A DNA stretch of 32,000 nt from NCBI RefSeq assembly GCF_000018105.1, contig NC_009925.1, positions 4,740,001 through 4,772,000 on the forward strand, read 5' to 3'. Of the stretch, positions 4,292 through 21,295 are shown in pieces (positions within the stretch are counted from its first letter, which is position 1; each line of letters begins with the position of its first letter). Source of the DNA: Acaryochloris marina MBIC11017. GTDB taxonomy: Bacteria; Cyanobacteriota; Cyanobacteriia; Thermosynechococcales; Thermosynechococcaceae. The position numbers and the translations under genes are program-made. The notes below the pieces were generated by a model. That model was not told the origin of the DNA. It worked only from the letters and a program-made list of their open reading frames with translations, and made no database searches.

Positions 4292-6907
4292 ATGACTCAA
4301 GATACACCAAAGTCCCCTAGACGACCACGGAAGATTGGCCCTGCCGCCATTGCAGCCTTATTGGCAAGTGGTCTTTTCCAACCTCTTCTTCCCGCCTTTG
4401 CCGCTGGAACAGCTGCTGGCCAACAAATCAGTAACACGGCCACTGCAACCTATTCAGAAACGAGTGGTGGACCTACTATCGATGCCACATCAAATACTGT
4501 TACCGTCACCGTTGCAGAAGTTGCTGGTGTGACTGCAACTCCTGCCGGTTTCACTGATACAGATGGTGGTGCGGTTGAGTCAGGTGACTTTTTATACTTC
4601 GACTTCGATGTTACCAACATTGGAAACACGCTTACAGATATCCATATTCCTTCAACGGTTACCCCTGAGAACTTTACCCTCACACCAGATCCCGCTCTAA
4701 ATGCAACCGCATCAATTCTGGTCGATATCGGTGATGGGAATGGATTTGTTCCTTTGAGTGGCTTCCCCGGTGGAGTAATTCCCGACGTTGCGGTAGATGA
4801 CACGATCCAAGTCAGGGTTGTAGGTACTCCCGCTGCTGGCACATCTGCAGGTGCCGATGTCGGCGTTACCTTGGGTAGCACTGGTCCTGACAACAATGGT
4901 CCTACCACCCAGAACCAACCCGACCTCCCAGATGGAGCCAATCCCAACGAAATTCGCACCGAGGACGCTGACCCCGGTAACGGTGCTCCAGTTAACGGCG
5001 AGCGAGAAGCGAGTGCTACGAACAGTATTGAATTTGCCAGTTCCGTCCGTCCCTTAGCCTTGGCTACTGTCACCAAAATTGCCTCTAACCTGGCTCCTGG
5101 ACCAACGGCTGCTGCCAATGACGATGAGATTACCTATGACTTAGGTCTAACGGTAGAAAGTTCTTCTCCTAATGCTGCTTTCACACCAGCTGATCTAGAA
5201 GGTACAAATATTAGTGTTAATGGGTCAGTCGCTCCTCAGATCTTAGTGTCTGATGCGATTCCAGCTGGTACTGTGCTTTCAACAACTACTCTCCCTAGTG
5301 CTCCTGCTGGTTGGACTGTTGTATATACCGAAACAGCACTTACTACCACAGCAACTAACGCCCTATGGACAACTACCCTTCCAGCAACTCCCACTCGAAT
5401 TGGTTTTATCCATAACGATCCAGGGTTAAGTGATACAAACCCACAGGTACTCCGGACAGATCCAGTACAGGGACCTTTTCAGTTCACAGTAGTCACCTCT
5501 GGCTTACCAGCTACAGGTGGACAGATTGCTAACATTGCCCAGGTATTTGGTGAAACAGTCGGCGATCCTGACAATGAAGTTATTTACGATGAGTCTGGCG
5601 ACAGCAATCCCAACAACTTCAACGACGATGGTACACCACCGGATCCAACGGGTACTAATTATGACCCAACCGCTAATACTGGGGATACCGGTGTTGCAGA
5701 CCCTGTAACCCAAGGAACGGATACTGGCAACAACAACACGGGTACTGGTCCAGATGGTGAAGACAACGTGGTCAATATTGGCGACGCTGCGGGGAGTGAC
5801 GATATCCTTAATGGTCCGAATACGGTCCCTGGCGCTGTCGGTCCCACGGACGATAACGATGACTTCACCAACCAGACCACGGATGTTCCTGCTGGGGTTG
5901 GTCCAACTGATATCTTTGACCCCGCACCTGAAACCTTTAACAATACGATTCAGAATCCTGCTAGCTCTGGATTTATTTCAAATGTGACTTTACAACCTAT
6001 TTCTCCCACCCAGGCAGAATCCACGGATGATAGTGCATTAACAGGTCAATATGGCGCTAACAGCGATATTCCTACTGGTACAACGGTTACGATTACTGCG
6101 ACCGACGATGCTGGTGTTGTTCAGTCTGCTACATATACTTATAACGGTACAACCTTTGACCTGACCGGTAGCAGTACTAATGGTACTCCTGAGACTGCAG
6201 GTAACTTCAAACATGTTAATGTCGGTGACTTAAATGCAGGGCAGACCTTAAATTACACAACAGTCGTTGATTTACCTGATGGTAGCGCAGCAGGTACTGC
6301 TGATGATGTTGTCCCGAATGATGAGATTCCTGTTCCCATCCTGGCTTTTGCGGATGATGATCCTAGTGGCTCTCCTGGATATAACTTTGCCACTGGTACC
6401 CCTGAATCAACTACTAACATCACTCTTGATCGCCTCTATACCGGCTTTATGCGGTTGACTAAGGAAGTACAGATTCTGGATGAGAACGGTGTGCTTATCC
6501 AACCTTGGACTTCTGACCAACCCACCATTGATGGAGTTGATGTCCTTCCTAATTACCAAATCGAGTACCGGATTACCTACGAAAATATTTCGACTAATGT
6601 TGTCGGTAGTGGCAATACCACCCTAACCGCCTTTGACTTCGAAATTGTTGAAGATGGTAATCCTGTTGTCAACGCTGGCACTGGTGAGCAGAACGTCAAC
6701 AATAACTGGGCGTCCTTTACTGACCACGAACAAAACACCAGCGCTGACCAAGGCATAGTGGAATATTTCACCAATAGCACTGACGGAACTCCTTTAACCA
6801 CTTCAGACCCCATTGCTGGAACCAAAGTGGACAAGTATGAGAACCCCGTTGGTCAGGTCGATCCTGGCCAAACTGGTCAGTTCCAGTTCCGCCGCCGCAT
6901 CCAGTAA
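4292..6907 (+). CDS. Secreted DUF11-like repeat protein, candidate major surface or fibre subunit (871 aa, Cys-free, acidic, Thr/Asn/Gly/Asp/Pro-rich)
   Basis: Signal peptide: PRRPRKIGPAAIAALLASGLFQPLLPAFA followed by AGT. DUF11-like strand motifs: ISNTATATYS, SNTVTVTVAEVAG, DEITYDLGLTV, NYQIEYRITYENIS. DUF11-typical acidic linker: VIYDESGDSNPNNFNDDGTPPDPTG. The product has no cysteine and only 2 Met. Confidence 0.8.
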   Translation: MTQDTPKSPRRPRKIGPAAIAALLASGLFQPLLPAFAAGTAAGQQISNTATATYSETSGGPTIDATSNTVTVTVAEVAGVTATPAGFTDTDGGAVESGDFLYFDFDVTNIGNTLTDIHIPSTVTPENFTLTPDPALNATASILVDIGDGNGFVPLSGFPGGVIPDVAVDDTIQVRVVGTPAAGTSAGADVGVTLGSTGPDNNGPTTQNQPDLPDGANPNEIRTEDADPGNGAPVNGEREASATNSIEFASSVRPLALATVTKIASNLAPGPTAAANDDEITYDLGLTVESSSPNAAFTPADLEGTNISVNGSVAPQILVSDAIPAGTVLSTTTLPSAPAGWTVVYTETALTTTATNALWTTTLPATPTRIGFIHNDPGLSDTNPQVLRTDPVQGPFQFTVVTSGLPATGGQIANIAQVFGETVGDPDNEVIYDESGDSNPNNFNDDGTPPDPTGTNYDPTANTGDTGVADPVTQGTDTGNNNTGTGPDGEDNVVNIGDAAGSDDILNGPNTVPGAVGPTDDNDDFTNQTTDVPAGVGPTDIFDPAPETFNNTIQNPASSGFISNVTLQPISPTQAESTDDSALTGQYGANSDIPTGTTVTITATDDAGVVQSATYTYNGTTFDLTGSSTNGTPETAGNFKHVNVGDLNAGQTLNYTTVVDLPDGSAAGTADDVVPNDEIPVPILAFADDDPSGSPGYNFATGTPESTTNITLDRLYTGFMRLTKEVQILDENGVLIQPWTSDQPTIDGVDVLPNYQIEYRITYENISTNVVGSGNTTLTAFDFEIVEDGNPVVNAGTGEQNVNNNWASFTDHEQNTSADQGIVEYFTNSTDGTPLTTSDPIAGTKVDKYENPVGQVDPGQTGQFQFRRRIQ

Positions 6908-6913
6908 TCTGCT

Positions 6914-6950
6914 GCGTCAGGAAGTAGAAGCTATCTTCACTTCCTGACGC
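6914..6950 (+). terminator. Stem-loop 7 nt after the stop of the 4292 gene; possible partial terminator or attenuator
   Basis: GCGTCAGGAAGT (6914-6925) pairs perfectly with ACTTCCTGACGC (6939-6950), a 12-bp stem with a 13-nt loop. It is followed by TTATCGC, which is only a weak U-tract. Confidence 0.45.
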
Positions 6951-7011
6951 TTATCGCAGTCACACCAATTTTCTTAAAGCATTTTTTCTGAATTCAAAAG
7001 GTTTTCTCATC

Positions 7012-7572
7012 ATGAAACGTCGTCTATCCATCGGTCTCGGTGTCTTAGCAGTTGCCGTAGCCGTTCCTTTCGCTAGCAGCACCCCTGTTCTTGCTAACTT
7101 GCAAAAAGCAGGCGAAGCCCTCGTCCAGCAAATTCTTCAGCCCAAGGTAAAGATGGTGCTCTCTGCCGAGAAGCAAATCGTTACCACTAACCCTGAGGGT
7201 GAGCAGGAAATTTCCTGGGAAGCCGTTGAAGGCAATGTTACTGTTCGCCCTGGTGATGTCCTCCGCTACACCTTGCTTAGCGAGAATGCTGGAGACAAGC
7301 CTGCTGCTGAGTTGAAAATCAACCAGCCTATTCCGACCAAGACAGCTTTTGTTTTGGATTCTGCCCGAGCCAATGGTGCCAAGCTCACCTACAGCATTGA
7401 CGGTGGCCAGTCCTATTCTGAAAAGCCCATGGTTGAAGTCACTCAGCCTGACGGCACATTCAAAATGGAACCCGCCCCGGCTGAAGCTTACACCCATGTT
7501 CAGTGGGATTACAGCGAATCCCTCAAGCCCATGGCTTCTGTTAAAGCGGTTTACGAAGTAGCGGTTCAGTAA
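7012..7572 (+). CDS. Small secreted single-domain DUF11 (conserved repeat domain) protein, 186 aa
   Basis: Signal peptide: MKRRLSIGLGVLAVAVAVPFASSTPVLA. DUF11 core: VTVRPGDVLRYTLLSENAGDKPAAELKINQPIPTKTAFVLDS...LTYSIDGG. No Cys. Confidence 0.8.
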   Translation: MKRRLSIGLGVLAVAVAVPFASSTPVLANLQKAGEALVQQILQPKVKMVLSAEKQIVTTNPEGEQEISWEAVEGNVTVRPGDVLRYTLLSENAGDKPAAELKINQPIPTKTAFVLDSARANGAKLTYSIDGGQSYSEKPMVEVTQPDGTFKMEPAPAEAYTHVQWDYSESLKPMASVKAVYEVAVQ

Positions 7573-7579
7573 TGGACTG

Positions 7580-7626
7580 AGAGCTATGGGTGAAACCAAC
7601 TCTCTTTTCGGCTCACCCATAGCTCT
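7580..7626 (+). terminator. 14-bp perfect stem-loop just after the 7012 gene (terminator, processing or stability element)
   Basis: AGAGCTATGGGTGA (7580-7593) pairs with TCACCCATAGCTCT (7613-7626), with a 19-nt loop. No U-tract follows, so intrinsic termination is uncertain. Confidence 0.3.
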
Positions 7627-7814: not shown

Positions 7815-9350
7815 GTGAGACCACCTCACTTGCCATTCCCCAACCAACCCTTCCCCAGGTGGGCTCGTGCTCTGACTTCAACTTTAGTTTTGGGCAGCCT
7901 ATTTTCGAGCTCTGCCATTTCTTGGGCTCAAACCACGGAGGAAGAAGACTCCAGAGATCTTCTGAATAACACTGCTTCTTATTCCTACACCAACTCCAAT
8001 ACAAACACGCTGATTGAAAGCTTCACCAATCCGATTTCAAATGTGTTGGATCCTTCGTTGCTCGATCCCCGTGGGCAAGTTTTAGGCTGTGGCGGAGAAC
8101 CTCTCGCGGACTACACCGGGTTTACGGTCGGTCTCTACAATATTGACCCCAATGATCCGACCCAATCGGAACTAGGGAGCTTAGTGTTGTTAACCCGCAC
8201 TGAAGTTCCTGACATTCCCAATAACGGTATTGCTCTGGGCATCACCCCCAATGGATCTAACATTAACCCATTCCCCCTCACCAATGCCGATCAAGGGACC
8301 TACAGCTATCTACTAGACCCCAACCGAGGACAGCTCGCCGTGGGTCAATCTTATATCTTGGTGGTTACGCCGCCGGATGCGTCCATTTACAACCAGCGTC
8401 GCGTTCGTCTAACCATTACCTCCATTATTCCGACGGGCAACCGCAACTTGGTGACCTATCGGGCTACTTCCCTCGATGGTTTGCCCATCGCCGCAGAAGG
8501 AGAGACCAACTTTGAAGAAACGGTAACCACGATTGGGGATGCTGAGCGAATCTCGTTGCAACTACTGGCCTTAAACTTCTCTTCGACCCTGTGCCAGACC
8601 AATCAGATTCAAATTAGTAAGTCTGGGGACCGAGCCAATGCCGCCCCTGGAGATTCGGTGATTTATCGTCTGACCCTACGTAACCTGTCCGATGGGCAGT
8701 TAGACACCATTTCTGTACAAGATATTTTGCCGACGGGCTTTAAGCTGCTTCCCAACTCGGTTAGAGGGGCTCTGAATGGAACTGAGGTTCCGATTACGGT
8801 TGAGCAAAATGGTCAGAATCTAACCTTTAGGACCGACGCAGTTATTCCTTTAGAAGGGGTCATCAACGTCGTCTATGCAGCACAACTTACCCCAGATGCT
8901 ATTCGAGGCGATGGTAGAAACTCCGCCTCGGTTCTGGGATTCCGAGTCGATAACAACCTGGATGTTCGGGATGGCCCTGCAGTCCACCGAGTGCGGGTAA
9001 ACCCAGGCATCTTAACAGACTGTGGCAATATTCTAGGCCGAGTCTTCGTCGATAAAAACTTCGATGGCGAGCAGCAAACGGGGGAACCTGGTATTCCCAA
9101 TGCTGTGGTCTGGATGGATGACGGCAATCGCATCACAACCGATGAGAATGGTTTATTCCATGTCAGATGTGTATTGCCTGGACCTCGCACTGGTGCTCTG
9201 GATTTAACCACCTTGCCCGGTTACACCTTAGCCCCCAATCTCCACTTTATAGAAAGAAATAGCCCTTCGCGTTTGGTCAGACTCTCTCCCGGTAGCACCG
9301 TACGCATGAACTTCGGTGTCACACCTACCTTCCAGGAGGAGTCCAAATGA
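7815..9350 (+). CDS. Secreted DUF11 + SdrD-B/Cna-B-like domain protein (511 aa)
   Basis: GTG start at 7815, 9 nt after GAGGAG (7800-7805). Signal peptide: WARALTSTLVLGSLFSSSAISWA. DUF11 motif: ISKSGDRANAAPGDSVIYRLTLRNLSDGQLDTISVQDILPTGF. SdrD-B-like motif: GNILGRVFVDKNFDGEQQTGEPGIPNAVVWMDDGNRITTDENGLFHV. Confidence 0.8.
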   Translation: MRPPHLPFPNQPFPRWARALTSTLVLGSLFSSSAISWAQTTEEEDSRDLLNNTASYSYTNSNTNTLIESFTNPISNVLDPSLLDPRGQVLGCGGEPLADYTGFTVGLYNIDPNDPTQSELGSLVLLTRTEVPDIPNNGIALGITPNGSNINPFPLTNADQGTYSYLLDPNRGQLAVGQSYILVVTPPDASIYNQRRVRLTITSIIPTGNRNLVTYRATSLDGLPIAAEGETNFEETVTTIGDAERISLQLLALNFSSTLCQTNQIQISKSGDRANAAPGDSVIYRLTLRNLSDGQLDTISVQDILPTGFKLLPNSVRGALNGTEVPITVEQNGQNLTFRTDAVIPLEGVINVVYAAQLTPDAIRGDGRNSASVLGFRVDNNLDVRDGPAVHRVRVNPGILTDCGNILGRVFVDKNFDGEQQTGEPGIPNAVVWMDDGNRITTDENGLFHVRCVLPGPRTGALDLTTLPGYTLAPNLHFIERNSPSRLVRLSPGSTVRMNFGVTPTFQEESK

Positions 9351-12300
9351 TGAAACAACGTTCTTACCAGTGGATGCAAACTGGACTCCTCGGAATTGTC
9401 GCAGGTACCAGCGTGGCTTTAGCCCCAAATCTGGTTAATGCCCAAGTCATGGAAGAGGTCCAACCAGCAGATGAATCAACCCTGAGTGCAGATAAGCCAA
9501 CCGTTCGTGATGCTGAACCAACCTTACATGCAGAAAATTCGGCTGTTAGTGACGCTGAACCAACCCTAAGCGTTGACCAGGAATCCATTAACGAAGCTCC
9601 TACTCAAGAGCTTGTTATTGAAGAAGCCGCCGCTGATTCTGCCGTGGCTGAAGAGCCTCAAGTTAATCAACCCCAAACAGCAGCTAGTGATCCTCAGCCA
9701 GTTGCTGCCGAAGAAAACATGACTCCTGGCTCAGAAGCTACCAGTTCTGAAAGCCTAAAACAAGATATCCCAGTTGTTGTTGAACAACCGGCTGAAGCTG
9801 CACCTAAAGTTGTCGCTGAAGAGGTATCCTCCCCAACGCAACCCACCGTTTCCACGCCTCAGCCCCCAGAATCGTTGATCAAAGACACTCCCCCTGTGTC
9901 AGATGAGTCTGAGGTACCCGCCCCTGCTTCTACAGAAGCGCCCACAACTGCTCAGACACCAGCTGCTACGTCAGCTTCAGGGATTTCAATCTTAACGCCT
10001 GGTTCTGGGAGTGTGGTTGATAAACCAGCAACCACGGTCATTATTGAATTTGGTGCTGATCAAAAAGTTGAGCTAAGGGTCAATGGTAAGGCGGTTGATA
10101 GCGCTCAAGTGGGTCGAACCGAGACCAATTCTGCCACCCAGAAAGTCCGGCAAACTTGGTATGGCGTCATCCTCGATGCAGGTGTCAATACCATTACCGT
10201 CAATGAAGTCGGTCAAGAGGCCCCTAGTGCATCGGTTCAGGTAGAAGTGCCTGGTGAGCCGACTCAAATTAAGGTGCGAACGGCTCAAAGTAAAGTTCCT
10301 GCCGATGGTCGGTCTACGGCCCAGGTGTTGGGTTACTTGCTAGATGCCAATGGCAACCAGTCGAACTGGGATGCCATTGTCACCCTAGAAGCCACATCAG
10401 GAAAATTCGTGGGTACGGATAACAAACCTGATGTTCCTGGATTCCAAGTGGAAGCCATTGATGGTAAATTCACCGCTGATTTACAGTCCAGCATTAGTGC
10501 AGGGCTGGTGAGAGTTCGGGCTACTGCTGCTGATATGGAAGGGTTCCATCAGTTTCAGTTTTCCACGCCCATTCGACCTTCGGCTCTACTAACCGGGGTT
10601 GTAGATGTGCGGATTGGTCGTCGGGGCACCAACTTCTATGACAGCTTCCGCGAGTTCTTACCTGTCGATGGCGATAATGGGTATGAAGTTGATGCCCGTG
10701 CCCAAGCCTTTGGGATTACTTCCATTGGCGATTGGTTATTAACGGGGGCTTTTAATAGTGCTCGCCCCCTGAATGAGGACTGTAACGGGGAATCTACCCT
10801 GTTCAAAGCCTCAGGTACAGAGTGCGATTACAACAACTACGCTACCTACGGCGATAACTCCACTACGGATGTAACGGCCCCGTCCACCGATAACTTATTT
10901 GTACGATTAGAGCGCACCTCACCCGTCCCCGGTGCTGGTAGTGATTACTTTATGTGGGGGGATTACAACACCGAAGAATTTTCTCGGTCCTCTCAGTTAT
11001 TTACCGCCACCAGCCGCTCTTTACATGGCTTTAAGGGCAACTACAATATCGGCAATCTGCAGTTGACTGCTCTTTACGGCAATAACACTGAGGGTTTCCA
11101 GCGGGATACGATTGCTCCCGATGGCACCAGCGGATTTTATTTCTTATCTCGACGGTTGCTGGTTCCAGGGAGTGAGCAAGTCTTTCTGGAGCTTGAAGAA
11201 CTGAACCGACCCGGTACTGTCCTGAAGCGGGAGCGGTTAAGCCGAGGGGCTGACTATGAAGTGGATTATGATCGCGGTACGTTGAAATTCCAACGCCCGA
11301 TTCTACGCACAGATGTCGATGATGACGGCTTTGTGCTGGTTCGCCGCATTGTCACCACTTACCAATTTGAAGGAGAAAGTTCTGATACCAATACTTACGG
11401 CGGTCGTGCCCAGTACACCTTTTCTCGGAGCTTAGATCAGGAGAGCTGGGTGGGGGCCACCTACTTCCGTGAGGATCGCGGTAGCCAAGACTTTGAACTT
11501 TACGGTGCTGATGCTCTAGTGTCTTTCGGCAAGGATAGTTACCTGGTTGCAGAATATGCCCGGTCCAATAACTCGCTAGATTTCGCGACGCCCGTGAGCG
11601 GCAATGCTTACCGGGTTGAAATTGAGGCAAAGCCCACTGACAATATTTCGGGTCGAGCCTATTTCAAACGGGCTGATGTGGGTTTCTCCAACAATGCCAC
11701 CACTAGCTTTGTTCCTGGCCAAACTCGCTATGGGGCAGAAGTCTTAGCTGCAGTCTCTAAGAATACTAAGCTGCGGGCCAGCTTTGACCATGAGGATAAT
11801 TTTGGGGTTGCACCGCGTCCGCTTGATTTGTTTGAAGATCTAATCCAGCCCGGTTTCTCTCCCACTCCCGGTAATCCAGTCAATAACTCCCTGACGACGA
11901 TTACAGCAGGGGTTCTGCAGCGGATTGGTGATTCGGAAGTGAGTTTGGACTACGTCCGCCGCGATCGCACCGATCGTCTCACGGGCCAGGACATCACCAC
12001 GGACCAGATTCGCTCTACCGCCCGGATACCTCTGACGAAAAAACTGACCTTGCGGGCATTGAACGAGACCACCTTCTCTTCCGAAATTGATCCGATTTAT
12101 CCCAACCGTACTTCCGTGGGGCTGGAATATGAGGTTTATCCTGGCGTCACCATTGGCCTGAACAACACTTACCTGACCGGTGGACAGTTCGATGATGACT
12201 TTATCACTAGTCTAGATATCGCGGGTCAACATACCTTCTCCACCGATACCACCCTCCGAGGTCAGTTCTCGATGATGGGTGACTTGGGGATGGCTGGCTA

Positions 12301-13411: not shown

Positions 13412-13463
13412 CTGAACCTCTAACCCTGTCGTTCTCCCGGACTACGGGGTTAGCGCTATCTCA

Positions 13464-13502: not shown

Positions 13503-13534
13503 CTCTACCTAGTTTGTATCCCCAAGAGGTAATC

Positions 13535-15300: not shown

Positions 15301-15345
15301 CTCTGATCTCACTTAAGAAAAGGAGTGAGATCAGAGTGTTTTGTT
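15301..15345 (+). terminator. Rho-independent terminator-like hairpin after the beta-helix gene
   Basis: CTCTGATCTCACT (15301-15313) pairs perfectly with AGTGAGATCAGAG (15324-15336), a 13-bp stem with a 10-nt loop. The T-rich run TGTTTTGTTCC follows. Confidence 0.65.
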
Positions 15346-15363: not shown

Positions 15364-17823
15364 ATGTTTTCATTCAATTGTTTTACCCAGAATTCCTATT
15401 GCCAAAATTCTCTCAAAAAATTAAAATATGCACTACGCAGTGCAAAATGGTTACCCGTTGCAACGTTTGCCGCTACAGCATTCAGTATTCTTGTAGCTCC
15501 TTCCGCAGCACTAGCCCAACGTAACTTTTCCCCACGTTTTAGCACTCAAGCTAGGGGGCGAACCACTATCTTCGGAAATCCGGTTACCACCTGTTCTTCG
15601 ACTATTGGTCCCAGAAGAGATATTTGTGCAGCGACTCAACAGGCGACGACAGGGAGTGGCATCGACTTCACCAACAACGGTTATTGGATGGACTATGTGG
15701 ACATTGATAGTGATGGCTCAACATTCAACTCCTCTTCAGTTACTTACAATTTCCCTACCGCGAATCCTGGCTTTAATATCGTCTGGGCAGGACTTTATTG
15801 GGCTGGGGAAACTTCAGCTGGCGCTGCAAGCGGTGGTATTCCTGCTGGTGAAGCAGCTATCGATGCTAGCAAGCGGAACGAAATGTTACTGCGTATTCCC
15901 GGATCATCAACCTATCAAACTATCACTGCAAGCACCTTAGATACGATCAATACAACCCGATATAGTGCTTTTGCGAATGTCACTTCTTTGGTGCAACAAG
16001 GGGGGAGTGGAACTTACTTTGGGGCCAATATTCAAACGGGGAAAGGTCGCGATCGCTATGGTGGCTGGGCGTTAATCGTCGTCTATCAAGATGATTCGGA
16101 AATACTGCGAAGTATGACTGTGTTTGATGGTTTTATTCAGGTTGGAAATAATATCGTTGATACTACAATCAGTGGTTTTCTAACTCCAAATGCCGGGCCG
16201 TTTGAAGCTGCATTCGGGGCGTTTATCAGTGAAGGAGATGTAGGCCTAACGGGTGACCAATTTTTGATTGATGGGGATGGTGCCAACTCCGATGGCGATG
16301 CAACGGACCAGCCTTTCGTCAATATTAGCGATGCCAATAGCCCGACGACCAATTTCTTTAACAGTTCAGCTTCTTTATTTGAGACGCGAATTGGAACCAA
16401 TACAACGGTCAACACGCCTGATGGCAAGACCCTCGGCCCCATTACCCGGAATCCCGATTATCCCAATTTGCTGGCCCTGGATATTGATATTGTGGAAGCA
16501 AAAGATGCGGCAAACAATGCGGTCATCCAAAACAACGCCACAGAAGCAGGACTGAGATTTACCAGTTCAGGGGATTTTTACTATCCCACCGCTTTCTTTT
16601 TCAGTGTTGAAGTCTTTCAACCCGTCTTGACCCAGAACTTCACCAAGACAGTGACGGATATCAACGGAGGCGATTTGAATCCCGGTGATATTTTGGAATA
16701 CACGATCACTTACCGAAATACCGGGAATGATGCGGCGACTGACGTTGTTTTGACGGATGACATTCCCACTCATACGTCTTACGAACCCAACTCTCTGGTC
16801 ATTACCACCGATCCTGATCCGACCCTGACGACTCCAGCGGCGATGGGAGATGGGACCGCAGATAATGATCGGGCTGAATTTGATAGCGTTAATAACCGCG
16901 TGGTTTTCCGGACAGGGATTGGAGCCAATGGGACCAATGGCGGAGAAGTTCCCTTTGACGACCCCAATACACCGATCGCAGAGAACGATACTGTCCAGGT
17001 CAAATTTAGAGTGAAAGTGGATGGTGATATTAACGTCTTTCCTACGACCATTTCTAACCAGGCCGCAATTGACTACAACGGTAAGTTCTCTGGCATTCCA
17101 TTCTCCGGGGTCAGTGATGACCCCACCACTCCCAATGATCCGAATGATCCGACGGATATAGATGTGGTTGAAGCCTCATCGCCCAACCTGATCTTGGTCA
17201 AACGCATCACGCGGATTAATGGCAGCACAGTCAATGGTGCCGTGAACCTAGAGAACTATGTGGATGATGCCAATAGCCCTTACGACGATAACGTGGACGA
17301 AATCCCCCCCTTTGCTGGACAATCTGATCCAAACCAGGATGACACCACCCACTGGCCAGATGCAGATGCAGCCAATGGCCCTGATGACTATCTAAAAGGA
17401 GCGATTGCTGCGGGTGAAGTCAAACCTGGAGATGAGGTTGAGTACACCATCTATTTCTTATCTACGGGGGGTAAGGATGCGATTGATGTACAGCTTTGTG
17501 ATAAAGTCCCTGCTTTGCAACGTTTTGTACTGGATGCTTATAACGCGGTAACGCCAGCGCCCAGTGGAGGTGTCGGGGCCAATCGGGGGATTGAAGTGGA
17601 GTATAACGGCACCATTTTGTCTTATACCAATGATGCCGATGGAGATACTGCTCAGTATTATCCACCTGGCTCAACTCTTCCTGCCCCTTGTAATAATGCC
17701 CCGGCTCAATCAGAAGACAATGGTGCTGTGGTGCTTGACCTAGGCACACTCCCTGAATCAACGGCTCCAGGAGCACCAACCGCCTCCTATGGCGCGTTGC
17801 GATTCCGGGCCAAGGTAAAGTAG
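15364..17823 (+). CDS. Secreted adhesin-like protein: N-terminal lectin/jelly-roll-like domain, DUF11 domain, and a C-terminal module shared with the 18194 gene
   Basis: The ORF-track start (GTG 15325) lies inside the terminator hairpin, so the first in-frame ATG at 15364 is preferred. Signal peptide: AKWLPVATFAATAFSILVAPSAALA. N-domain motifs: IVWAGLYWAGE and RYGGWALIVVYQD. DUF11 motif: DLNPGDILEYTITYRNTGNDAATDVVLTDDIP. Shared C-terminal module at 17182-17820. Confidence 0.8.
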   Translation: MFSFNCFTQNSYCQNSLKKLKYALRSAKWLPVATFAATAFSILVAPSAALAQRNFSPRFSTQARGRTTIFGNPVTTCSSTIGPRRDICAATQQATTGSGIDFTNNGYWMDYVDIDSDGSTFNSSSVTYNFPTANPGFNIVWAGLYWAGETSAGAASGGIPAGEAAIDASKRNEMLLRIPGSSTYQTITASTLDTINTTRYSAFANVTSLVQQGGSGTYFGANIQTGKGRDRYGGWALIVVYQDDSEILRSMTVFDGFIQVGNNIVDTTISGFLTPNAGPFEAAFGAFISEGDVGLTGDQFLIDGDGANSDGDATDQPFVNISDANSPTTNFFNSSASLFETRIGTNTTVNTPDGKTLGPITRNPDYPNLLALDIDIVEAKDAANNAVIQNNATEAGLRFTSSGDFYYPTAFFFSVEVFQPVLTQNFTKTVTDINGGDLNPGDILEYTITYRNTGNDAATDVVLTDDIPTHTSYEPNSLVITTDPDPTLTTPAAMGDGTADNDRAEFDSVNNRVVFRTGIGANGTNGGEVPFDDPNTPIAENDTVQVKFRVKVDGDINVFPTTISNQAAIDYNGKFSGIPFSGVSDDPTTPNDPNDPTDIDVVEASSPNLILVKRITRINGSTVNGAVNLENYVDDANSPYDDNVDEIPPFAGQSDPNQDDTTHWPDADAANGPDDYLKGAIAAGEVKPGDEVEYTIYFLSTGGKDAIDVQLCDKVPALQRFVLDAYNAVTPAPSGGVGANRGIEVEYNGTILSYTNDADGDTAQYYPPGSTLPAPCNNAPAQSEDNGAVVLDLGTLPESTAPGAPTASYGALRFRAKVK

Positions 17824-18193: not shown

Positions 18194-21100
18194 ATGATGT
18201 TTCTCAAATTCTCTAAGCCATACTTGCCCGCTTCAATGACATTTAAGAAAATACTGACAGGTCTTATTCTATCTGGGGCTTTGGAAAGTGTTGGCTATGG
18301 CGGAGCATTACTGGCTAAGGAAACATACCCACACGCTCAGAAATATCAAGTCTCTGCCCATACCCTACTCCAAACTGACTTGGAGCAAACTTCAAATCCT
18401 CTTCATTCCGCTCGCGCAACGGATGTGGTGATTATTGATGCGGGTGTCACCAATTCCCATGCGTTGCTAAAAAATATCCCCAGTCAAGCAGCCGTTCACT
18501 ATCTCAGCCCAACTGGCGATGGATTGGAGCAGATTGGCGATATCCTCAGCAATTATCGAAATCTCAAATCAGTACATTTGCTGGCTCATGGCTCTTCAGC
18601 TCAATTGCAGCTAGGCAACTCATGGGTTAATCCCGCAACTCTCAACCATAGGGCCAAACAAGTTCAGTCGTGGCAAGCCGCGCTATCGCCAACAGCAGAT
18701 ATCTTTCTCTATGGCTGTCATGTTGCCTCTACTGTGGAAGGGAAAGCCTTTGTGTCTGACCTGGCCACTTTAACCGGCGCTGATATAGCTGCCTCAGATA
18801 ATCTGACAGGTGATGCAACCCAGGGTGGAGATTGGACCTTGGAGTATCAGTTGGGTGACCTAGAACCCCATAGGATTTCTCAGCAACTAGCCCTGTCGAA
18901 TTACGATCAGGTTTTGCAAGTTACCGTTCTCAATTTCAATGACCCAACGCCTTCTTTAGAGCCTGCCACAACGGACGTTTTTCGCTTTCAAAATGTCGCT
19001 ACTGTGGGTGGACAAAGTATTGACGCCCTAGTCACGGTTAGCAATATCAATAATGCAACCCTCACTAACTTGGATGATAATGGCTCTTTCCCTGAGCGAT
19101 TCCAACCTGTGATTCGTCATGATGGTGGAGCCAATGCCATCTCCTCTATCCGATTTGATTTTCAGCTCGTTCAAGCGGGAACAACAACTCCTTTAGCCGC
19201 GACCAATGTTTTTTTTAGTGCCCAAGACGTTGACGGTAATGGCTCTGCTAACTCTGTTAGAGAATTTGTAGAAGTCATTAACGCGGAAACTGTCTTTATC
19301 GACGACCCTACTTTTTTGGAACTCGCAGCCTCATTAGCAGGAGGAATCCGCCATCGAGTTATTAATTCCTCCAATGTGCAAAGTGGTATCGGTACGGACG
19401 ATCGCTACGAAATTTACAGTTACTTGGGGGATACCGTTACTAACTTTTCGATTGTTGCTGGTAATGATGTGGGATCTGCCAACTGTTCCGGGGCAAGCTG
19501 CCCTCGCCAAAACTCTTGGACCTTTGATATTTCCGATATTCAAGTGATCGATTTCAGTGATGCGCCATCTACTTATGGCGTTCCTTCCCATGCTGGCACT
19601 GCAGTGACTACGCTTCGACTCGGGACTGCAAGGGATGGGGATAGTGGTCCTATTCCTTCAGCCGATGCTTTAGGAGACGATAACAATGGCTCTGATGATG
19701 AGGATGGTGTTACCTTAGCCCCCCTCAATGCCAGTGATACCTCCTATTCGATTCAGGCATCGAGTCTTTCCGTCACCAATAGTACGGGAGGTCCAGCAAC
19801 CCTACACGCCTGGGTTGATTTTGATGGCAATGGTACTTTTGACTCCGATGAGTATACAAGTCAACCCGTACAGAACGGTATTAGTTCACCAGATGGAGCC
19901 TTAACCTGGTCGGGGGCTGGAGTAAGCGGAATGTCAGGGGGCACGACCACCTATGCGCGTTTCCGGATTACGACGGATGGGGGTATTAATGCCAATACTC
20001 CGGGTGGATTTGCCAGGGATGGTGAGGTGGAAGATCATGCCCTTGCGATCACAACTCCAGTCAATCCAGATATAGATAATAACTTCTGCCAGGTGAGCAG
20101 TGACATGATGTTTATCTTGGATAAATCGGGTTCCGTGAGTCTCAGTGAGCGACGATTACAACGAGATGCGGTTATGGCAATGCTCAATTACTTGGTCGAT
20201 AACAATATTACGTCTCGGGTAGGTATTGTCCGGTTTGACTCTACAAGTGCCACAGTGATCGGTTATACCGATGTAACGGCTGCTAATCTGCCTACTTTTG
20301 AAAGCGCCCTCAATACTAACTATGTCAATATTGGTGGGGGCGCCACCAATTGGGAAGCTGGATTCCAGCAGGCTATTTCCCTGGGGGTATCACCGGGCAG
20401 CCCTGATGTCGTTTTCTTCTTCGCTGATGGCAACATCAATTCGGGAGGCAGCCCGAACGATGAAGCGTTGCAATTCAAGCAGGCGGGTGCTCATATTTAT
20501 GGAATTGGTATCCAAAGTTTAGATATCGATGATTTCTTGGATATAACCGATGGTAGTAATACCACTCAATTTGACGCTGCGCTGGATAATGCTAATTCTG
20601 CCGATTATGTAGAAGTTAATAGCTATGACGACTTAGCGGACGATATGACCAGCTTGTTACGTTCACTTTGTCCACCTGCAACCAACAACCCCAATGTGTT
20701 ACTGGTCAAGCGGATCACCCGCGTGAATGGCCTCACAGAGAATGGGGGCACTAACCTCAATGTTTACGTTGATGACCCCAGCTACGAGTACGATGACAAT
20801 ACCCTCGGTAGCCCTGCGCCCACTCCCTTGGATACCGAATACTGGCCCACTCCAAGCACCTTTTTACTGGGGGCCACCAATGGAGGTCAAACCCGTCCAG
20901 GGGATGAAGTTGAGTACACCATCTATTTCCTATCAACGGGTACTTCAACGGCCGTGGGTGTTCAATTCTGCGATAAAGTTCCTAGTTTCCAAACCTTTGT
21001 GCCTGATGCGTTTAACGCCGTACCCCCTGCACCTAGTGGAGGCGTCGGAGCCAATCGGGGCATTGCAGTCGAATACAACGGCAGTCTTCTCTCATTTACC

Positions 21101-21295
21101 AACGATGCAGATGGAGATACCGCTCAGTATTATCCACCGGGTTCCACCTTGCCCGCAGTTTGTGATAATGCCCCCGCCCAAACAGAAGATAACGGTGCCA
21201 TCGTCGTCAACTTAGGTGATTTGCCCCAAGCAACGGGTGTAGGTACCCCGGCAACTTCTTATGGCGCCGTTCGGTTTCGGGCCAGAGTGAAGTAG
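18194..21295 (+). CDS. Large secreted modular adhesin-like protein: DUF4347, beta-sandwich region, GEVED domain, von Willebrand factor A domain, shared C-terminal module (1033 aa)
   Basis: DUF4347-like region at about 18419-18855: VVIIDAGV...SVHLLAHGSSAQLQLGN...DIFLYGCHVA...LATLTGADIAASDNLTG...GGDWTLEY. GEVED-type domain at about 19546-20050: DFSDAPSTYG...DDEDGV...WVDFDGNGTFD...YARFRIT...DGEVEDHAL. vWA domain with MIDAS at about 20102-20670: FILDKSGSVS...GGGATNWEAG...FFFADG. The start could instead be the ATG at 18236. Confidence 0.85.
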   Translation: MMFLKFSKPYLPASMTFKKILTGLILSGALESVGYGGALLAKETYPHAQKYQVSAHTLLQTDLEQTSNPLHSARATDVVIIDAGVTNSHALLKNIPSQAAVHYLSPTGDGLEQIGDILSNYRNLKSVHLLAHGSSAQLQLGNSWVNPATLNHRAKQVQSWQAALSPTADIFLYGCHVASTVEGKAFVSDLATLTGADIAASDNLTGDATQGGDWTLEYQLGDLEPHRISQQLALSNYDQVLQVTVLNFNDPTPSLEPATTDVFRFQNVATVGGQSIDALVTVSNINNATLTNLDDNGSFPERFQPVIRHDGGANAISSIRFDFQLVQAGTTTPLAATNVFFSAQDVDGNGSANSVREFVEVINAETVFIDDPTFLELAASLAGGIRHRVINSSNVQSGIGTDDRYEIYSYLGDTVTNFSIVAGNDVGSANCSGASCPRQNSWTFDISDIQVIDFSDAPSTYGVPSHAGTAVTTLRLGTARDGDSGPIPSADALGDDNNGSDDEDGVTLAPLNASDTSYSIQASSLSVTNSTGGPATLHAWVDFDGNGTFDSDEYTSQPVQNGISSPDGALTWSGAGVSGMSGGTTTYARFRITTDGGINANTPGGFARDGEVEDHALAITTPVNPDIDNNFCQVSSDMMFILDKSGSVSLSERRLQRDAVMAMLNYLVDNNITSRVGIVRFDSTSATVIGYTDVTAANLPTFESALNTNYVNIGGGATNWEAGFQQAISLGVSPGSPDVVFFFADGNINSGGSPNDEALQFKQAGAHIYGIGIQSLDIDDFLDITDGSNTTQFDAALDNANSADYVEVNSYDDLADDMTSLLRSLCPPATNNPNVLLVKRITRVNGLTENGGTNLNVYVDDPSYEYDDNTLGSPAPTPLDTEYWPTPSTFLLGATNGGQTRPGDEVEYTIYFLSTGTSTAVGVQFCDKVPSFQTFVPDAFNAVPPAPSGGVGANRGIAVEYNGSLLSFTNDADGDTAQYYPPGSTLPAVCDNAPAQTEDNGAIVVNLGDLPQATGVGTPATSYGAVRFRARVK

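What the first reader, a model, noticed from the sequence alone, without database searches (positions are those of the whole stretch)
4292..21295. Seven-gene, single-strand locus encoding only signal-peptide proteins: candidate undescribed surface-fibre or adhesin assembly system
Seven consecutive + strand genes fill this region: 4292-6907, 7012-7572, 7815-9350, 9347-13411, 13535-15247, 15364-17823 and 18194-21295. Nothing credible lies on the other strand. Every product begins with a basic n-region plus a hydrophobic signal peptide.

Composition of the products:
- Four carry DUF11-type beta-sandwich signatures (VRPGDVLRYTLLSENAGD; APGDSVIYRLTLRNLSDG; NPGDILEYTITYRNTGND; NYQIEYRITYENIS).
- One adds an SdrD-B/Cna-B-like unit.
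- One is a roughly 1350-aa protein whose C-terminal roughly 870 aa look like a very large outer-membrane beta-barrel.
- One is a parallel beta-helix protein.
- Two are big modular adhesin-like proteins.

The layout is an abundant structural subunit, a small Ig-like protein, an OM barrel and accessory adhesins. That resembles chaperone-usher or type V pilus loci. However, I see no canonical usher, PapD-like chaperone, sortase, T1SS/T2SS/T9SS, exosortase/PEP-CTERM or autotransporter component. I therefore read it as a self-contained Sec-dependent surface-display system that I cannot assign to a described pathway.
Basis: partly seen in the sequence, partly recalled or inferred. Interest (0 to 1): 0.8.

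Follow-up and report, generated by a model that had tools for sequence, protein, structure and literature searches.

The report
Uncharacterised barrel-anchored modular adhesin fibre system
This cyanobacterial gene cluster appears to encode an undescribed outer-membrane machine that builds surface adhesin fibres, probably by snapping together protein modules that each lack, or carry spare, one strand of the same fold.

Summary
The seven + strand genes are real and all encode signal-peptide proteins. g1-g2-g3-g4 keep the same order in 74 of 80 cyanobacterial loci. At least 581 species genomes encode the barrel. g5 is optional. g6 and g7 are variable-head proteins that share a conserved ~200-aa C-terminal domain (CTD).

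The g4 barrel matches no characterised family: not usher, TonB receptor, LptD, BamA, SprA or autotransporter. In other phyla g3 and g4 are fused into one protein.

My main inference is a donor/acceptor grammar. The CTDs of g1, g6 and g7, and all of g2, are DUF11/CLIPPER domains that stop just before the last, Asn-bearing strand. The mature N-termini of g1 and g3 look like that orphan strand (N48, K724 and E787 are invariant in g1). Four distant loci repeat the same roles: base, shaft, cap and tip.

I read it as a usher- and sortase-independent fibre or adhesin display system assembled by strand complementation, possibly locked by isopeptide bonds. All evidence is computational. I found no publication describing it.

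The parts
4292..6907 (+). g1, 871 aa: proposed shaft subunit with both a donor and an acceptor. Signal peptide aa 1-37; orphan DUF11 last-strand hairpin aa 39-75; Ig-like N-domain; DUF7925 (CnaA-like, aa 257-443); low-confidence acidic Gly/Asn/Pro-rich region aa ~445-530; truncated DUF11 C-terminal domain aa ~708-871.
   Evidence: Pfam DUF7925 E 1e-59. More than 1000 homologues. Invariant N48, K262, N414, K724 and E787 in 40 sequences. AF2 pLDDT 79. Foldseek hits to pilins, adhesins and CLIPPER 9ifr.
4406..4516 (+). g1 donor element: mature N-terminus 'GTAAGQQISNTATATYSE...TSNTVTVTVA'. It resembles the final two strands of a DUF11 domain, with no preceding domain.
   Evidence: Motif present in 119 of 120 g1-family proteins, against 0 of 120 stand-alone barrels and 2 of 290 background windows. 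At least 95% column conservation. Same pattern as inter-domain junctions in tandem DUF11 arrays. AF2 strands 45-55 and 62-74 at pLDDT about 90.
6413..6904 (+). g1 C-terminal acceptor domain: DUF11-like with strand-A Lys (K724) and acid (E787). It ends at the F-strand, '...GQFQFRRRIQ-COOH'.
   Evidence: AF2 pLDDT above 90.
6914..6950 (+). Stem-loop immediately after the g1 stop codon.
   Evidence: RNA fold z = -3.6; 0 of 200 shuffles fold as well.
7012..7572 (+). g2, 186 aa: free-standing acceptor-type DUF11 domain, proposed cap or donor-strand chaperone. It ends at the F-strand, '...VKAVYEVAVQ-COOH'. Cyanobacterial copies have 'LNQPIP' where the Asp would be.
   Evidence: Matches the accessory-CTD HMM at positions 17-175, with typical E around 1e-38 across the g2 family (window copy 6e-28). 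74 of 80 loci. Orthologues in four distant loci.
7580..7626 (+). Stem-loop immediately after the g2 stop codon.
   Evidence: RNA fold z = -4.2.
7815..9350 (+). g3, 511 aa: proposed base subunit, donor only. N-terminal donor 'LLNNTASYSY...' (aa 49-78, nt 7959-8048); unassigned domain; complete DUF11 (aa 265-371, K/D/N triad present); SdrD_B/CnaB-like domain (aa 409-456). Its stop overlaps the g4 start (ATGA).
   Evidence: Fused to g4 orthologues in other phyla.
9347..13411 (+). g4, 1354 aa: outer-membrane component. Signal peptide; about 170-aa acidic Pro/Glu/Ala-rich linker; two Ig-like domains (aa ~205-400); giant beta-barrel region (aa ~400-1290); low-complexity tail.
   Evidence: AF2. Foldseek finds only generic large OM barrels. 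321 close and 2874 distant family representatives. No Plug, TonB_dep_Rec, Usher or autotransporter domain.
13535..15247 (+). g5, 570 aa: secreted right-handed beta-helix (NosD-like) protein. Optional accessory of unknown role.
   Evidence: Pfam Beta_helix 7.6e-11, NosD 1e-7. Present in about 16 of 80 loci.
15301..15336 (+). Terminator-like hairpin (14-bp stem followed by a T-rich tail) after g5.
   Evidence: RNA fold z = -3.8.
15364..17823 (+). g6, 819 aa: proposed tip adhesin. Unassigned head, one complete internal DUF11 (aa ~425-575, which continues '...VKFRVKV-loop-ISNQAAIDY'), then a truncated acceptor CTD (aa 607-819, nt 17182-17820) ending '...LRFRAKVK-COOH'.
18194..21295 (+). g7, 1033 aa: proposed tip adhesin. 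DUF4347 (aa 78-241), GEVED (537-617), VWA (637-789) and a truncated acceptor CTD (aa 833-1033, nt 20690-21292) ending '...VRFRARVK-COOH'.
   Evidence: CTD is 63% identical to the g6 CTD. The CTD is always at the extreme C-terminus in 74 accessory proteins.

Best explanation
The locus encodes a Sec-dependent system, independent of usher and sortase, that assembles or displays modular adhesin fibres on the outer membrane.

**Proposed roles.**
- g4 is a giant outer-membrane beta-barrel with periplasmic Ig domains.
- g3 is translationally coupled to g4 here and fused to it in other phyla. It is the base subunit.
- g1 is a shaft subunit.
- g6 and g7 are interchangeable tip adhesins.
- g2 is a headless cap, or a chaperone for donor strands.

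**Proposed assembly.** The pieces join through a split DUF11/CLIPPER domain.
- Acceptor domains sit at the C-termini of g1, g6 and g7, and make up all of g2. They stop after the penultimate strand.
- Donor peptides at the mature N-termini of g1 and g3 supply the missing Asn-bearing strands in trans (donor-strand complementation).
- This gives a polar chain: barrel/g3, then g1 (one or more copies), then a tip.
- The acceptor keeps the strand-A Lys and the catalytic acid, and the donor keeps the Asn. The joint may therefore be locked by a spontaneous intermolecular Lys-Asn isopeptide bond, in Tag/Catcher fashion. Folding and locking would also drive export without ATP.

**Shown.**
- Gene content and synteny.
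- The g3-g4 fusion.
- Absence of known machinery.
- Conservation of the terminal motifs and residues.
- Recurrence of the four roles in distant loci.

**Inferred.**
- Trans complementation.
- Covalent locking.
- Polymer length.
- Surface exposure.
- The role of g2.
For: 1. **Core synteny.** g1-g2-g3-g4 are syntenic in 74 of 80 loci, and at least 581 species genomes encode the barrel.
2. **g3 and g4 are one unit.** They overlap by ATGA. In Acidobacteriota, Desulfobacterales, Smithella, Thermodesulfobacteriota and Oligosphaeraceae they form one polypeptide. One example matches g3 at 29% over 370 aa and g4 at 25.5% over 1182 aa.
3. **The accessory CTD is a conserved terminal module.** It is always at the extreme C-terminus of 74 proteins of 305-2203 aa. 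Their heads vary: VWA, GEVED, LTD, SdrD_B, DUF7933, or nothing assignable.
4. **g2 is a stand-alone copy of that CTD**, with typical E around 1e-38.
5. **The acceptors lack the last strand.** Complete DUF11 domains end F-strand, loop, 'N-x-A' strand. The Pfam model runs to 'GRNSAS' in g3, and g6's internal domain continues 'VKFRVKV...ISNQAAIDY'. The CTDs and g2 stop at the F-strand.
6. **The donors look like that missing strand.** The g1 and g3 N-termini carry a conserved 'IxNxAxxxY...SNTVTVTV' element right after the signal peptide. It occurs in 119 of 120 g1-family proteins, 71 of 78 g3 orthologues, 0 of 120 stand-alone barrels and 2 of 290 background windows. It is identical in pattern to inter-domain junctions of tandem DUF11 arrays.
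7. **Key residues are conserved.** N48, K724 and E787 are invariant in 40 g1 homologues. All 74 accessory CTDs keep the Lys and 65 of 74 keep C[DE]xxP.
8. **Four distant loci repeat all four roles with the same termini.** L081, L084, L085 and L086 each show a donor-only barrel fusion, a donor-plus-acceptor protein and a small acceptor-only protein. L081, L085 and L086 also show a head-plus-acceptor protein.
9. **g1 looks like a pilin or adhesin.** Its model resembles the CfaE-CfaB fusion, CupB6, T6, BcpA, RrgB, EbpB, SdrG and CLIPPER 9ifr.
10. **The mechanism has precedent.** BsaA uses an N-E-K triad in 'exchange and lock' (10.1101/2024.11.04.621531). Archaeal threads combine donor strands with isopeptide bonds (PMC9715654).
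Against: - No experimental data exist, and I could run no multimer model.
- hhalign of the short donor peptides against a complete DUF11 profile was not significant.
- Local HMM alignments cover only the first half of the CTD, so the 'missing last strand' rests on motif and strand-pattern comparison.
- In the g1 monomer model the N-terminal hairpin is confidently docked (pLDDT about 90), but I could not see where. It may complete g1's own CTD in cis, as discontinuous domains do in RrgA-type adhesins. That would make g1 a closed monomer rather than a polymer.
- g1 also has an invariant Asn (N851) inside its CTD that could serve an intramolecular bond.
- Cyanobacterial g2 lacks the Asp ('LNQPIP').
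- SLH and OmpA modules lie between stalk and barrel in some fusions. The stalk must therefore thread through its own barrel to reach the surface, or else the stalk is periplasmic.
- The barrel model is only moderately confident (pTM 0.44).
Confidence: 0.55

Rival explanations
1. CTD-signal secretion, similar in logic to type IX secretion. The conserved C-terminal beta-sandwich of g1, g6 and g7 would be a sorting signal recognised by the giant g4 barrel. Cargo would be exported as monomers and released or anchored, without subunit-subunit strand exchange. g2 would be a regulator or decoy for the CTD receptor.
For: - Variable heads with a conserved module at the extreme C-terminus.
- The barrel is giant, and SprA appears among the Foldseek hits.
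- One to three cargo genes per locus, and cargo content varies between close relatives.
Against: - There is no homology to SprA, PorV or Por_Secre_tail.
- This model does not explain the conserved orphan-strand N-termini of g1, g3 and the barrel fusions.
- It does not explain why the CTD keeps the isopeptide Lys and acid but lacks the Asn strand.
- It does not explain the strict base/shaft/cap/tip pattern in distant loci.
Confidence: 0.15
2. Giant split autotransporter-like adhesin. g3 would be the passenger and g4 its translocator and anchor, as the fusions suggest. g1, g2, g6 and g7 would be co-regulated but independently acting monomeric fibrillar adhesins. In g1 the N-terminal hairpin would complete its own C-terminal domain in cis.
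For: - N-terminal passenger and C-terminal barrel in the fusion proteins.
- The AF2 monomer docks the g1 hairpin with high confidence.
- Discontinuous isopeptide domains are known in RrgA- and GBS104-type adhesins (Table 1 of PMC12617251).
Against: - g6, g7 and g2 have acceptors but no donor, and g3 and the fusions have donors but no truncated acceptor. Cis completion therefore cannot satisfy most partners.
- There is no autotransporter beta-domain or POTRA. The only hit was an insignificant POTRA-like match at E 0.046.
- The barrel is far larger than 12-16 strands.
Confidence: 0.17
3. Envelope scaffold rather than adhesin. The system would build a periplasmic or outer-membrane-to-peptidoglycan tether, or anchor an S-layer or sheath, with the DUF11 stalks on the periplasmic side of the barrel.
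For: - SLH and OmpA peptidoglycan-binding modules occur in some barrel fusions.
- The best full-length Foldseek matches include the Deinococcus SlpA/SDBC barrel.
- g4 carries a long Pro/Glu-rich linker.
Against: - The heads are typical extracellular adhesion modules: VWA, GEVED, lamin-tail and DUF4347.
- The accessory genes vary like cassettes even between close relatives, which is unusual for a structural envelope tether.
- TM-scores to SlpA are only about 0.2.
Confidence: 0.08
4. TonB-dependent nutrient receptor locus, as many database entries name the g4 family, with associated surface binding proteins (SusC/SusD-like logic).
For: - PGAP and UniRef name many homologues 'TonB-dependent receptor'.
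- TBDT barrels appear among the Foldseek hits.
- CarboxypepD_reg-like domains occur in g3-type proteins, as in SusC N-terminal extensions.
Against: - No Plug or TonB_dep_Rec domain is found at E<0.01 in Pfam or NCBIfam.
- There is no PDB sequence hit.
- The barrel region is about 890 aa with about 40 strands, against 22.
- No TonB/ExbBD genes lie in the locus.
- TM-scores are at most 0.27.
Confidence: 0.03

Closest known systems
Chaperone-usher pili (type 1, P, CFA/I)
   Same: - Sec-exported Ig-like subunits.
- An outer-membrane barrel as the assembly and exit site.
- No ATP source.
- The inferred logic of an incomplete Ig fold completed by a neighbour's N-terminal strand.
- A tip adhesin built as head plus acceptor-only pilin domain (FimH-like), with a donor-bearing base or terminator subunit.
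- g1 has Foldseek hits to CfaE-CfaB and CupB6.
   Different: - No usher (PF00577) or PapD-type chaperone.
- The subunits are DUF11/CnaA-like rather than pilin folds.
- The donor is a two-strand hairpin.
- The small conserved partner (g2) is an acceptor, not a strand-donating chaperone.
- The base subunit is fused or coupled to the barrel.
- The shaft subunit is 400-870 aa.
BsaA/TasA-type fibres and archaeal threads (donor-strand exchange plus isopeptide lock)
   Same: An N-terminal donor strand inserts into the next subunit. A conserved Asn (donor) with Lys and acid (acceptor) forms a spontaneous intermolecular isopeptide bond. The g1 residues N48, K724 and E787 are invariant (10.1101/2024.11.04.621531; PMC9715654).
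   Different: - A different fold family (TasA/camelysin-like or thread subunit, against DUF11/CLIPPER).
- Those systems are in monoderm organisms or archaea with no outer-membrane barrel.
- The bond here is only predicted.
Sortase-assembled Gram-positive pili and CnaA/CnaB fibrillar adhesins (including the CLIPPER/DUF11 and DUF7925 families)
   Same: - Domain families DUF11, DUF7925 and SdrD_B.
- A complete intramolecular K/D/N triad in g1 DUF7925 (K262 and N414 invariant) and in the g3 DUF11.
- A VWA-bearing tip protein, like RrgA or Mfa5.
- Foldseek hits to BcpA, RrgB, T6 and EbpB.
   Different: - No sortase, and no LPXTG or C-terminal membrane anchor. The C-termini end '...RFRAKVK'.
- A diderm host with a dedicated barrel.
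- The inferred intermolecular link is Lys-Asn within a split domain, not sortase-made Lys-Thr.
Type V secretion (autotransporters, two-partner secretion, inverse autotransporters)
   Same: Passenger N-terminal to an outer-membrane barrel in the fused homologues. Split passenger and barrel genes in cyanobacteria recall two-partner systems. Ig-like (Big_1/Invasin_D3) domains lie adjacent to the barrel.
   Different: - No autotransporter, ShlB/POTRA or intimin barrel domains.
- The barrel is roughly three times larger.
- Additional separately encoded subunits carry matched termini.
Type IX secretion (SprA translocon, CTD-tagged cargo)
   Same: A giant barrel, and cargo with variable heads and a conserved C-terminal beta-sandwich.
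   Different: - No SprA, PorV, PorU or Por_Secre_tail homology.
- Only low-TM Foldseek similarity.
- The CTD here retains isopeptide-type residues and is paired with donor N-termini.

Membership tests
Chaperone-usher pilus system | Usher protein (PF00577; 24-strand barrel with plug, NTD and CTDs) | tested here: not met
   No Usher domain in any product. No PapC or FimD among the top 50 Foldseek hits for g4. No PDB sequence or profile hit.
Chaperone-usher pilus system | PapD-like periplasmic chaperone (PF00345/PF02753) | tested here: not met
   g2 is a single DUF11-type domain homologous to the accessory CTD. There is no PapD-type hit in the window.
Chaperone-usher pilus system | Subunits with an incomplete Ig fold completed by an N-terminal extension of the next subunit | tested here: inconclusive
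   An analogous feature is inferred from termini and motifs. hhalign was not significant, and no multimer model was possible.
TonB-dependent receptor (database name of the g4 family) | Plug domain (PF07715), TonB_dep_Rec barrel (PF00593) and a TonB box | tested here: not met
   None detected at E<0.01 in Pfam or NCBIfam. The barrel region has about 40 strands. TM-scores to TBDTs are at most 0.27.
Autotransporter / two-partner secretion (T5SS) | 12- or 16-strand barrel domain (PF03797, PF03865) and POTRA domains | tested here: not met
   No such domains. The only hit was an insignificant POTRA-like match, E 0.046.
Sortase-dependent pili | Sortase gene and an LPXTG-type C-terminal sorting signal | tested here: not met
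   No sortase in the window. The C-termini read directly from the sequence end at a beta-strand with basic residues and no hydrophobic anchor.
Type IX secretion | SprA/PorV translocon and a Por_Secre_tail CTD (TIGR04183) | tested here: not met
   No hits in Pfam or NCBIfam. SprA appears only as a low-TM Foldseek match.
DUF11/CLIPPER-domain surface proteins | PF01345/TIGR01451 domain, with the Lys-Asp-Asn isopeptide triad where complete | tested here: met
   g2, g3, g6 and g7 pass the TIGR01451 cut-off. The g3 domain spans Pfam positions 2-113 and carries K, D and N. g1 hits CLIPPER 9ifr at TMt 0.65.
DUF7925 (CnaA-like predicted isopeptide domain) | PF25546 match with the conserved Lys/Asp/Asn triad | tested here: met
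   E 1.3e-59, full-length match at aa 257-443. K262 and N414 are invariant. The Pfam seed is Q8YS00 with K264/D326/N415 (PMC12617251).
Donor-strand 'exchange and lock' fibres (BsaA / archaeal threads) | Donor Asn plus acceptor Lys and catalytic Glu/Asp forming an intermolecular isopeptide bond | tested here: inconclusive
   The residues are conserved (N48, K724, E787. 74 of 74 Lys and 65 of 74 acid in accessory CTDs). The fold differs from those families. Geometry and bond formation cannot be tested with these tools.

The most novel reading that the evidence does not exclude
A widespread new pathway in diderm bacteria for building covalent surface fibres. It occurs in cyanobacteria, Acidobacteriota, Desulfobacterota-type lineages and Lentisphaerota. 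A giant outer-membrane barrel, fused or coupled to a base subunit, would export and anchor shaft subunits and interchangeable tip adhesins. These would polymerise through split CLIPPER domains acting as natural Tag/Catcher pairs: strand complementation followed by a spontaneous intermolecular Lys-Asn isopeptide bond. No usher, chaperone of the PapD type, sortase or ATP would be needed.
Probability: 0.33. Interest if true: 0.95.

Novelty: categorically new. Interest (0 to 1): 0.82.

Why it matters
If the model holds, this would add a new outer-membrane assembly pathway to the short list of known routes: chaperone-usher, curli, type IV, type V pili, T5SS and T9SS.

- **Cyanobacterial biology.** It would give cyanobacteria a dedicated adhesin or fibre system. 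That bears on aggregation, biofilm and mat formation, symbiosis and sheath attachment in Nostoc, Fischerella, Leptolyngbya, Acaryochloris and others.
- **Annotation.** It would explain thousands of proteins now labelled 'DUF11 domain-containing' or 'TonB-dependent receptor'.
- **Mechanism.** It would show that covalent, isopeptide-locked fibres can be built in diderm bacteria without sortase.
- **Tools.** It would supply a family of natural orthogonal Tag/Catcher pairs for protein engineering.

The hypothesis is directly testable, using a handful of point mutants and a peptide-plus-domain mixing assay.

Tried and rejected
**Tests that gave nothing or were inconclusive.**
- hhalign of the g1 and g3 N-terminal hairpin alignments against a complete g3 DUF11 profile was not significant.
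- hmmsearch of a g3-DUF11 HMM against the CTDs, g2 and the g1 C-terminus covered only the conserved first half of the domain. It therefore cannot say where the domain ends.
- Pfam scans of the isolated donor peptides returned nothing.
- A Pfam scan of the most conserved g4 segment (aa ~530-700) gave only an insignificant POTRA-like hit, E 0.046. I do not count it as evidence.
- PDB sequence and profile searches of g1, g2, g3 and the barrel found no relatives.
- Rfam found nothing in the window.
- The promoter scan was no better than shuffled sequence.
- The CTD-only homologue search returned only 57 short or fragmentary proteins, so it could not measure how many CTD proteins a genome holds.
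- The internal CTD-like copies in Nostoc accessory proteins could not be read unambiguously strand by strand. I did not use them.
- The first profile job failed because the profile exceeded 1200 positions. I re-ran it on a trimmed alignment.

**Literature.** Searches by domain names, accessions (Q8YS00, B2IT22, ACC79520, WP_012407545) and mechanism terms found no description of this system. The haloarchaeal tafi paper and the Chloroflexota grappling-hook paper concern different systems.

**Interpretations rejected.** TonB-dependent receptor, usher, LptD/BamA-type, SprA and autotransporter, because defining domains are absent.

Full report
**1. Observation**

By inspection, each product has a basic n-region, a hydrophobic core and an A-x-A-type cleavage site. 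I had no signal-peptide predictor.

- g1 has DUF7925 (E 1e-59).
- g2 has one DUF11/TIGR01451 domain.
- g3 has DUF11 plus a sub-threshold SdrD_B/CnaB unit.
- g4 has Ig-like Big_1/Invasin_D3 signals and a weak DUF2490 barrel hit.
- g5 is a NosD-like beta-helix.
- g6 has DUF11/DUF7619.
- g7 has DUF4347 + GEVED + VWA + a C-terminal DUF11.

The flanks encode NlpC/P60, a Ser/Thr kinase, a pentapeptide protein, SnoaL, a GAF-LuxR regulator, rhodanese, a STAND/WD40 protein and a DUF559 nuclease. No sortase, usher, PapD-type chaperone or secretion ATPase is present.

**2. The barrel**

AlphaFold2 of g4 aa 200-1300 gave pLDDT 68 and pTM 0.44, using 30 homologues. It predicts two Ig-like domains and then about 40 long antiparallel strands.

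Foldseek against the PDB returns only generic large outer-membrane barrels: MtrB, Deinococcus SlpA/SDBC, LptD, TonB-dependent transporters and SprA. TM-scores are at most 0.27, and no usher appears. PDB sequence and profile searches find nothing.

Many database entries call this family 'TonB-dependent receptor'. No Plug or TonB_dep_Rec domain is detectable, so I regard that name as unsupported.

**3. Conservation**

g4 has 321 close homologues. All the named ones among the 120 listed are cyanobacterial, with Acaryochloris at 80-98% identity. At least 581 species-level genomes encode a relative.

In the 80 best loci:
- g1-g2-g3-g4 lie in the same order and strand in 74. The exceptions are truncated contigs.
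- g5 follows g4 in only about 16.
- For g6 and g7, only the C-terminal ~200 aa are conserved downstream. That region is 63% identical between the two.
- A close relative (L001) has g1-g5 but no g6 or g7.

The conserved unit is therefore g1-g4 plus one to three proteins with a variable head and a conserved CTD.

**4. g3 and g4 form one functional unit**

Their reading frames overlap by ATGA. A profile of the barrel region finds 2874 family representatives, 836 of them at E<1e-30.

The distant members are 1600-2800 aa proteins with the architecture CarboxypepD_reg / DUF11 (one or more) / SdrD_B, then an Ig domain, then the barrel. That is g3 fused to g4. They come from Oligosphaeraceae, Thermodesulfobacteriota, Acidobacteriota, Smithella and Desulfobacterales. 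One fusion (P0230) matches g3 at 29% over 370 aa and g4 at 25.5% over 1182 aa.

Some fusions carry OmpA or SLH peptidoglycan-binding modules between the stalk and the barrel. This places that segment in the periplasm.

**5. A donor/acceptor grammar**

*Acceptors.* An iterated search with the g7 CTD over all ORFs of the 80 loci shows the full CTD always at the extreme C-terminus. It occurs in 74 proteins of 305-2203 aa. Their heads are diverse: GEVED x4, SdrD_B, lamin-tail, DUF7933, VWA, or nothing assignable.

The same search shows that the g2 family is a free-standing copy of this domain, with typical E around 1e-38.

*What a complete domain looks like.* Complete DUF11 domains end with an F-strand, a loop, and then an 'N-x-A' strand that carries the isopeptide Asn.
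- The Pfam model (positions 2-113 of 114) spans g3's internal domain up to 'GRNSAS'.
- g6's own internal domain continues '...VKFRVKV - loop - ISNQAAIDY'.
- The DUF11/CLIPPER triad (Lys in the first strand, Asp, Asn near the end) is documented in PMC12617251.

*Where the acceptors stop.* The terminal domains stop at the F-strand:
- g6: '...LRFRAKVK'
- g7: '...VRFRARVK'
- g1: '...FQFRRRIQ'
- g2: '...VYEVAVQ'

*Donors.* The mature N-termini of g1 ('GTAAGQQISNTATATYSE...TSNTVTVTVAEVAG') and g3 ('LLNNTASYSY', or 'INQATYTYTD' in Nostoc) are conserved at 95% or more. They have the same pattern as the inter-domain junctions of tandem DUF11 arrays. In P0256, for example, '...AAGTVISNTVRIAS...TTVGQASNLEIGK' compares with its own N-terminus 'PPAGTSIVNRAVASC...ATVVSGGPALVIEK'.

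The motif occurs in 119 of 120 g1-family proteins and 71 of 78 g3 orthologues. It also occurs in most barrel fusions. It occurs in 0 of 120 stand-alone barrels and 2 of 290 background windows.

*Conserved residues.* In 40 g1 homologues, N48 (donor), K724 and E787 (acceptor) are invariant. So are K262 and N414 of the internal DUF7925 triad. All 74 accessory CTDs keep the strand-A Lys, and 65 of 74 keep C[DE]xxP.

*Tally.* Donors are g1 and g3. Acceptors are g1, g2, g6 and g7.

**6. Independent recurrence**

Four distant loci repeat the roles with the same kinds of termini.

| Locus | Source | Tip (head + acceptor) | Cap (g2-like) | Shaft (donor + acceptor) | Base (donor + barrel) |
|---|---|---|---|---|---|
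| L081 | metagenome | 378 aa | 171 aa | 402 aa | 1599 aa |
| L085 | Desulfobacterales | 602 aa | 160 aa | 581 aa | 1955 aa |
| L086 | Smithella-like | 805 aa or more | 172 aa | 627 aa | 2450 aa |
| L084 | Acidobacteriota | none seen | 164 aa | two DUF7925 proteins (772 and 676 aa) | 1908 aa |

In L081 the tip ends '...KVYLQMKINP' and the g2 orthologue matches g2 at E 1e-20. The shaft has the donor 'GTSITNTLTANYTD' and ends '...TFKFTVTVNTL'. The base has the donor 'PGTIIVNHVDSVYRD'.

This recurrence across phyla is the strongest argument that the termini are functional partners.

**7. g1 structure**

AF2 gave pLDDT 79 and pTM 0.57. The N-terminal hairpin (strands 45-55 and 62-74) has pLDDT about 90, and the C-terminal domain is above 90. 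The acidic Gly/Asn/Pro-rich region at aa ~445-530 is lower.

Foldseek finds multi-Ig adhesins and pilins: the CfaE-CfaB fusion, CupB6, SdrG, the T6, BcpA, RrgB and EbpB pilins, and the CLIPPER domain 9ifr at TMt 0.65.

The tools do not show which sheet the hairpin docks into. Completion of g1's own C-terminal domain in cis therefore remains possible. AlphaFold monomer models of genuine donor-strand fibres also self-complement (PMC9715654).

**8. Mechanism proposed**

All products cross the inner membrane through Sec.
- g4 inserts in the outer membrane. Its Ig domains and Pro/Glu-rich linker face the periplasm.
- g3 is the base. Its N-terminal donor captures the acceptor domain of g1.
- g1's own N-terminal donor captures another g1, or a tip protein (g6 or g7), or the headless g2.
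- The acceptor keeps the Lys and the acid, and the donor keeps the Asn. The joint may therefore become a Lys-Asn isopeptide bond. Experimentally supported 'exchange and lock' precedents are BsaA (10.1101/2024.11.04.621531) and archaeal threads (PMC9715654).
- Cyanobacterial g2 has 'LNQPIP' where the Asp should be, while non-cyanobacterial g2 orthologues have 'VDPIP'. Its role as a non-covalent cap or chaperone, or as a covalent cap, is open.
- Folding and locking outside the cell could supply the driving force for export.

Steps shown: gene content, synteny, the fusion, the motifs, residue conservation and recurrence. Steps inferred: trans docking, covalency, polarity, polymer length, surface exposure and passage through the barrel.

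**9. Operon features**

Strong stem-loops follow the stop codons of g1 (6914-6950, z -3.6), g2 (7580-7626, z -4.2) and g5 (15301-15336, z -3.8, with a T-rich tail). A weaker one follows g4. This is compatible with segmented transcript stability, and with g6 and g7 being separate transcription units. It is untested.

**10. Comparison and novelty**

Functionally the closest analogue is the chaperone-usher pilus: barrel, strand complementation, and a tip made of head plus acceptor domain. Both defining proteins of that system are absent. The subunits belong to the CnaA/DUF11 world of Gram-positive pilins and fibrillar adhesins, yet there is no sortase or LPXTG. The fused base-plus-barrel recalls autotransporters, but no T5SS domain is present. 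The cargo-CTD logic recalls T9SS, again without homology.

No paper in the searchable library describes the locus or the barrel family. DUF7925 was defined only from an AlphaFold-database survey, seeded on a Nostoc PCC 7120 protein.

I therefore rate it as a new kind of system built from known principles. All evidence is computational, and subscription-only literature was not searchable.

Noticed in passing
window 2953-4291: A 1.34-kb AT-rich intergenic region (GC about 0.39, against about 0.49 elsewhere) lies upstream of g1. It has no credible ORF and no Rfam match. It may be a large regulatory region or a long 5' UTR for the cluster.
   Followed up: partly
window 6914-6950, 7580-7626, 13420-13453, 15301-15336: Stable stem-loops sit directly after the stop codons of g1, g2, g4 and g5. 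Only the last has a T-rich tail. They may set differential mRNA stability or partial termination within the cluster.
   Followed up: partly
window 24515-29344 (-) and 29341-30681 (-): A 1609-aa STAND-like protein with at least 12 near-identical WD40 repeats, highly repetitive at the protein level. Its start overlaps by 4 nt the stop of the upstream 446-aa AAA/ATPase_2-like gene. The pair is unrelated to the finding but is a typical cyanobacterial signalling or defence-like arrangement.
   Followed up: no
window 22661-23365 (-) and 23348-24289 (+): A GAF-LuxR (GerE) regulator overlaps head-to-head by 18 nt with a rhodanese gene. With the pentapeptide and SnoaL genes, it is conserved next to the cluster only in close Acaryochloris relatives (L001, L079). 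It is probably not part of the system.
   Followed up: partly
L001 (Acaryochloris sp. IP29b_bin.176) 2675-14085: This close relative has g1-g5 at 75-91% identity but no g6/g7-type gene before the pentapeptide gene. Tip or accessory genes are therefore gained and lost even between close relatives.
   Followed up: partly
g4 homologues P0005, P0009, P0414 and others: The family is widely annotated 'TonB-dependent receptor' by PGAP and UniRef although no Plug or TonB_dep_Rec domain is detectable. This is probably a propagated misannotation.
   Followed up: yes
window 7012-7572 versus L081 6707-7222, L085 7653-8135, L086 2472-2990: Cyanobacterial g2 proteins have 'LNQPIP' where non-cyanobacterial g2 orthologues, and all accessory CTDs, have an Asp ('VDPIP', 'CDxVP'). 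This points to a lineage-specific loss of the putative catalytic residue in the small subunit.
   Followed up: partly
P0178 and P0236: Some barrel-fusion homologues carry SLH or OmpA peptidoglycan-binding domains between the DUF11 stalk and the barrel. This constrains the topology: either the stalk threads the barrel lumen, or the stalk is periplasmic.
   Followed up: no
L028 13936-17718 and L038 13629-16073: Some Nostoc accessory CTD proteins also begin with a donor-like 'PGTVIDNQVTGSF' motif. They could act as extra shaft-type subunits with both donor and acceptor, rather than as tips.
   Followed up: no
P0306 and P0308 (Acaryochloris sp. IP29b_bin.137): One MAG encodes two distinct g1 paralogues, each about 60% identical to the window's g1. 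This hints at more than one copy of the system, or at alternative shaft subunits, in a genome.
   Followed up: no
window 10937-11446 (g4 aa ~530-700): The segment best conserved across distant barrel homologues ('APDGTSGFYFLSRRLLVPGSE...RGADYEVDYDRGTL') is predicted with low confidence. It may be a globular insert or plug rather than barrel wall. It has no significant family match.
   Followed up: partly
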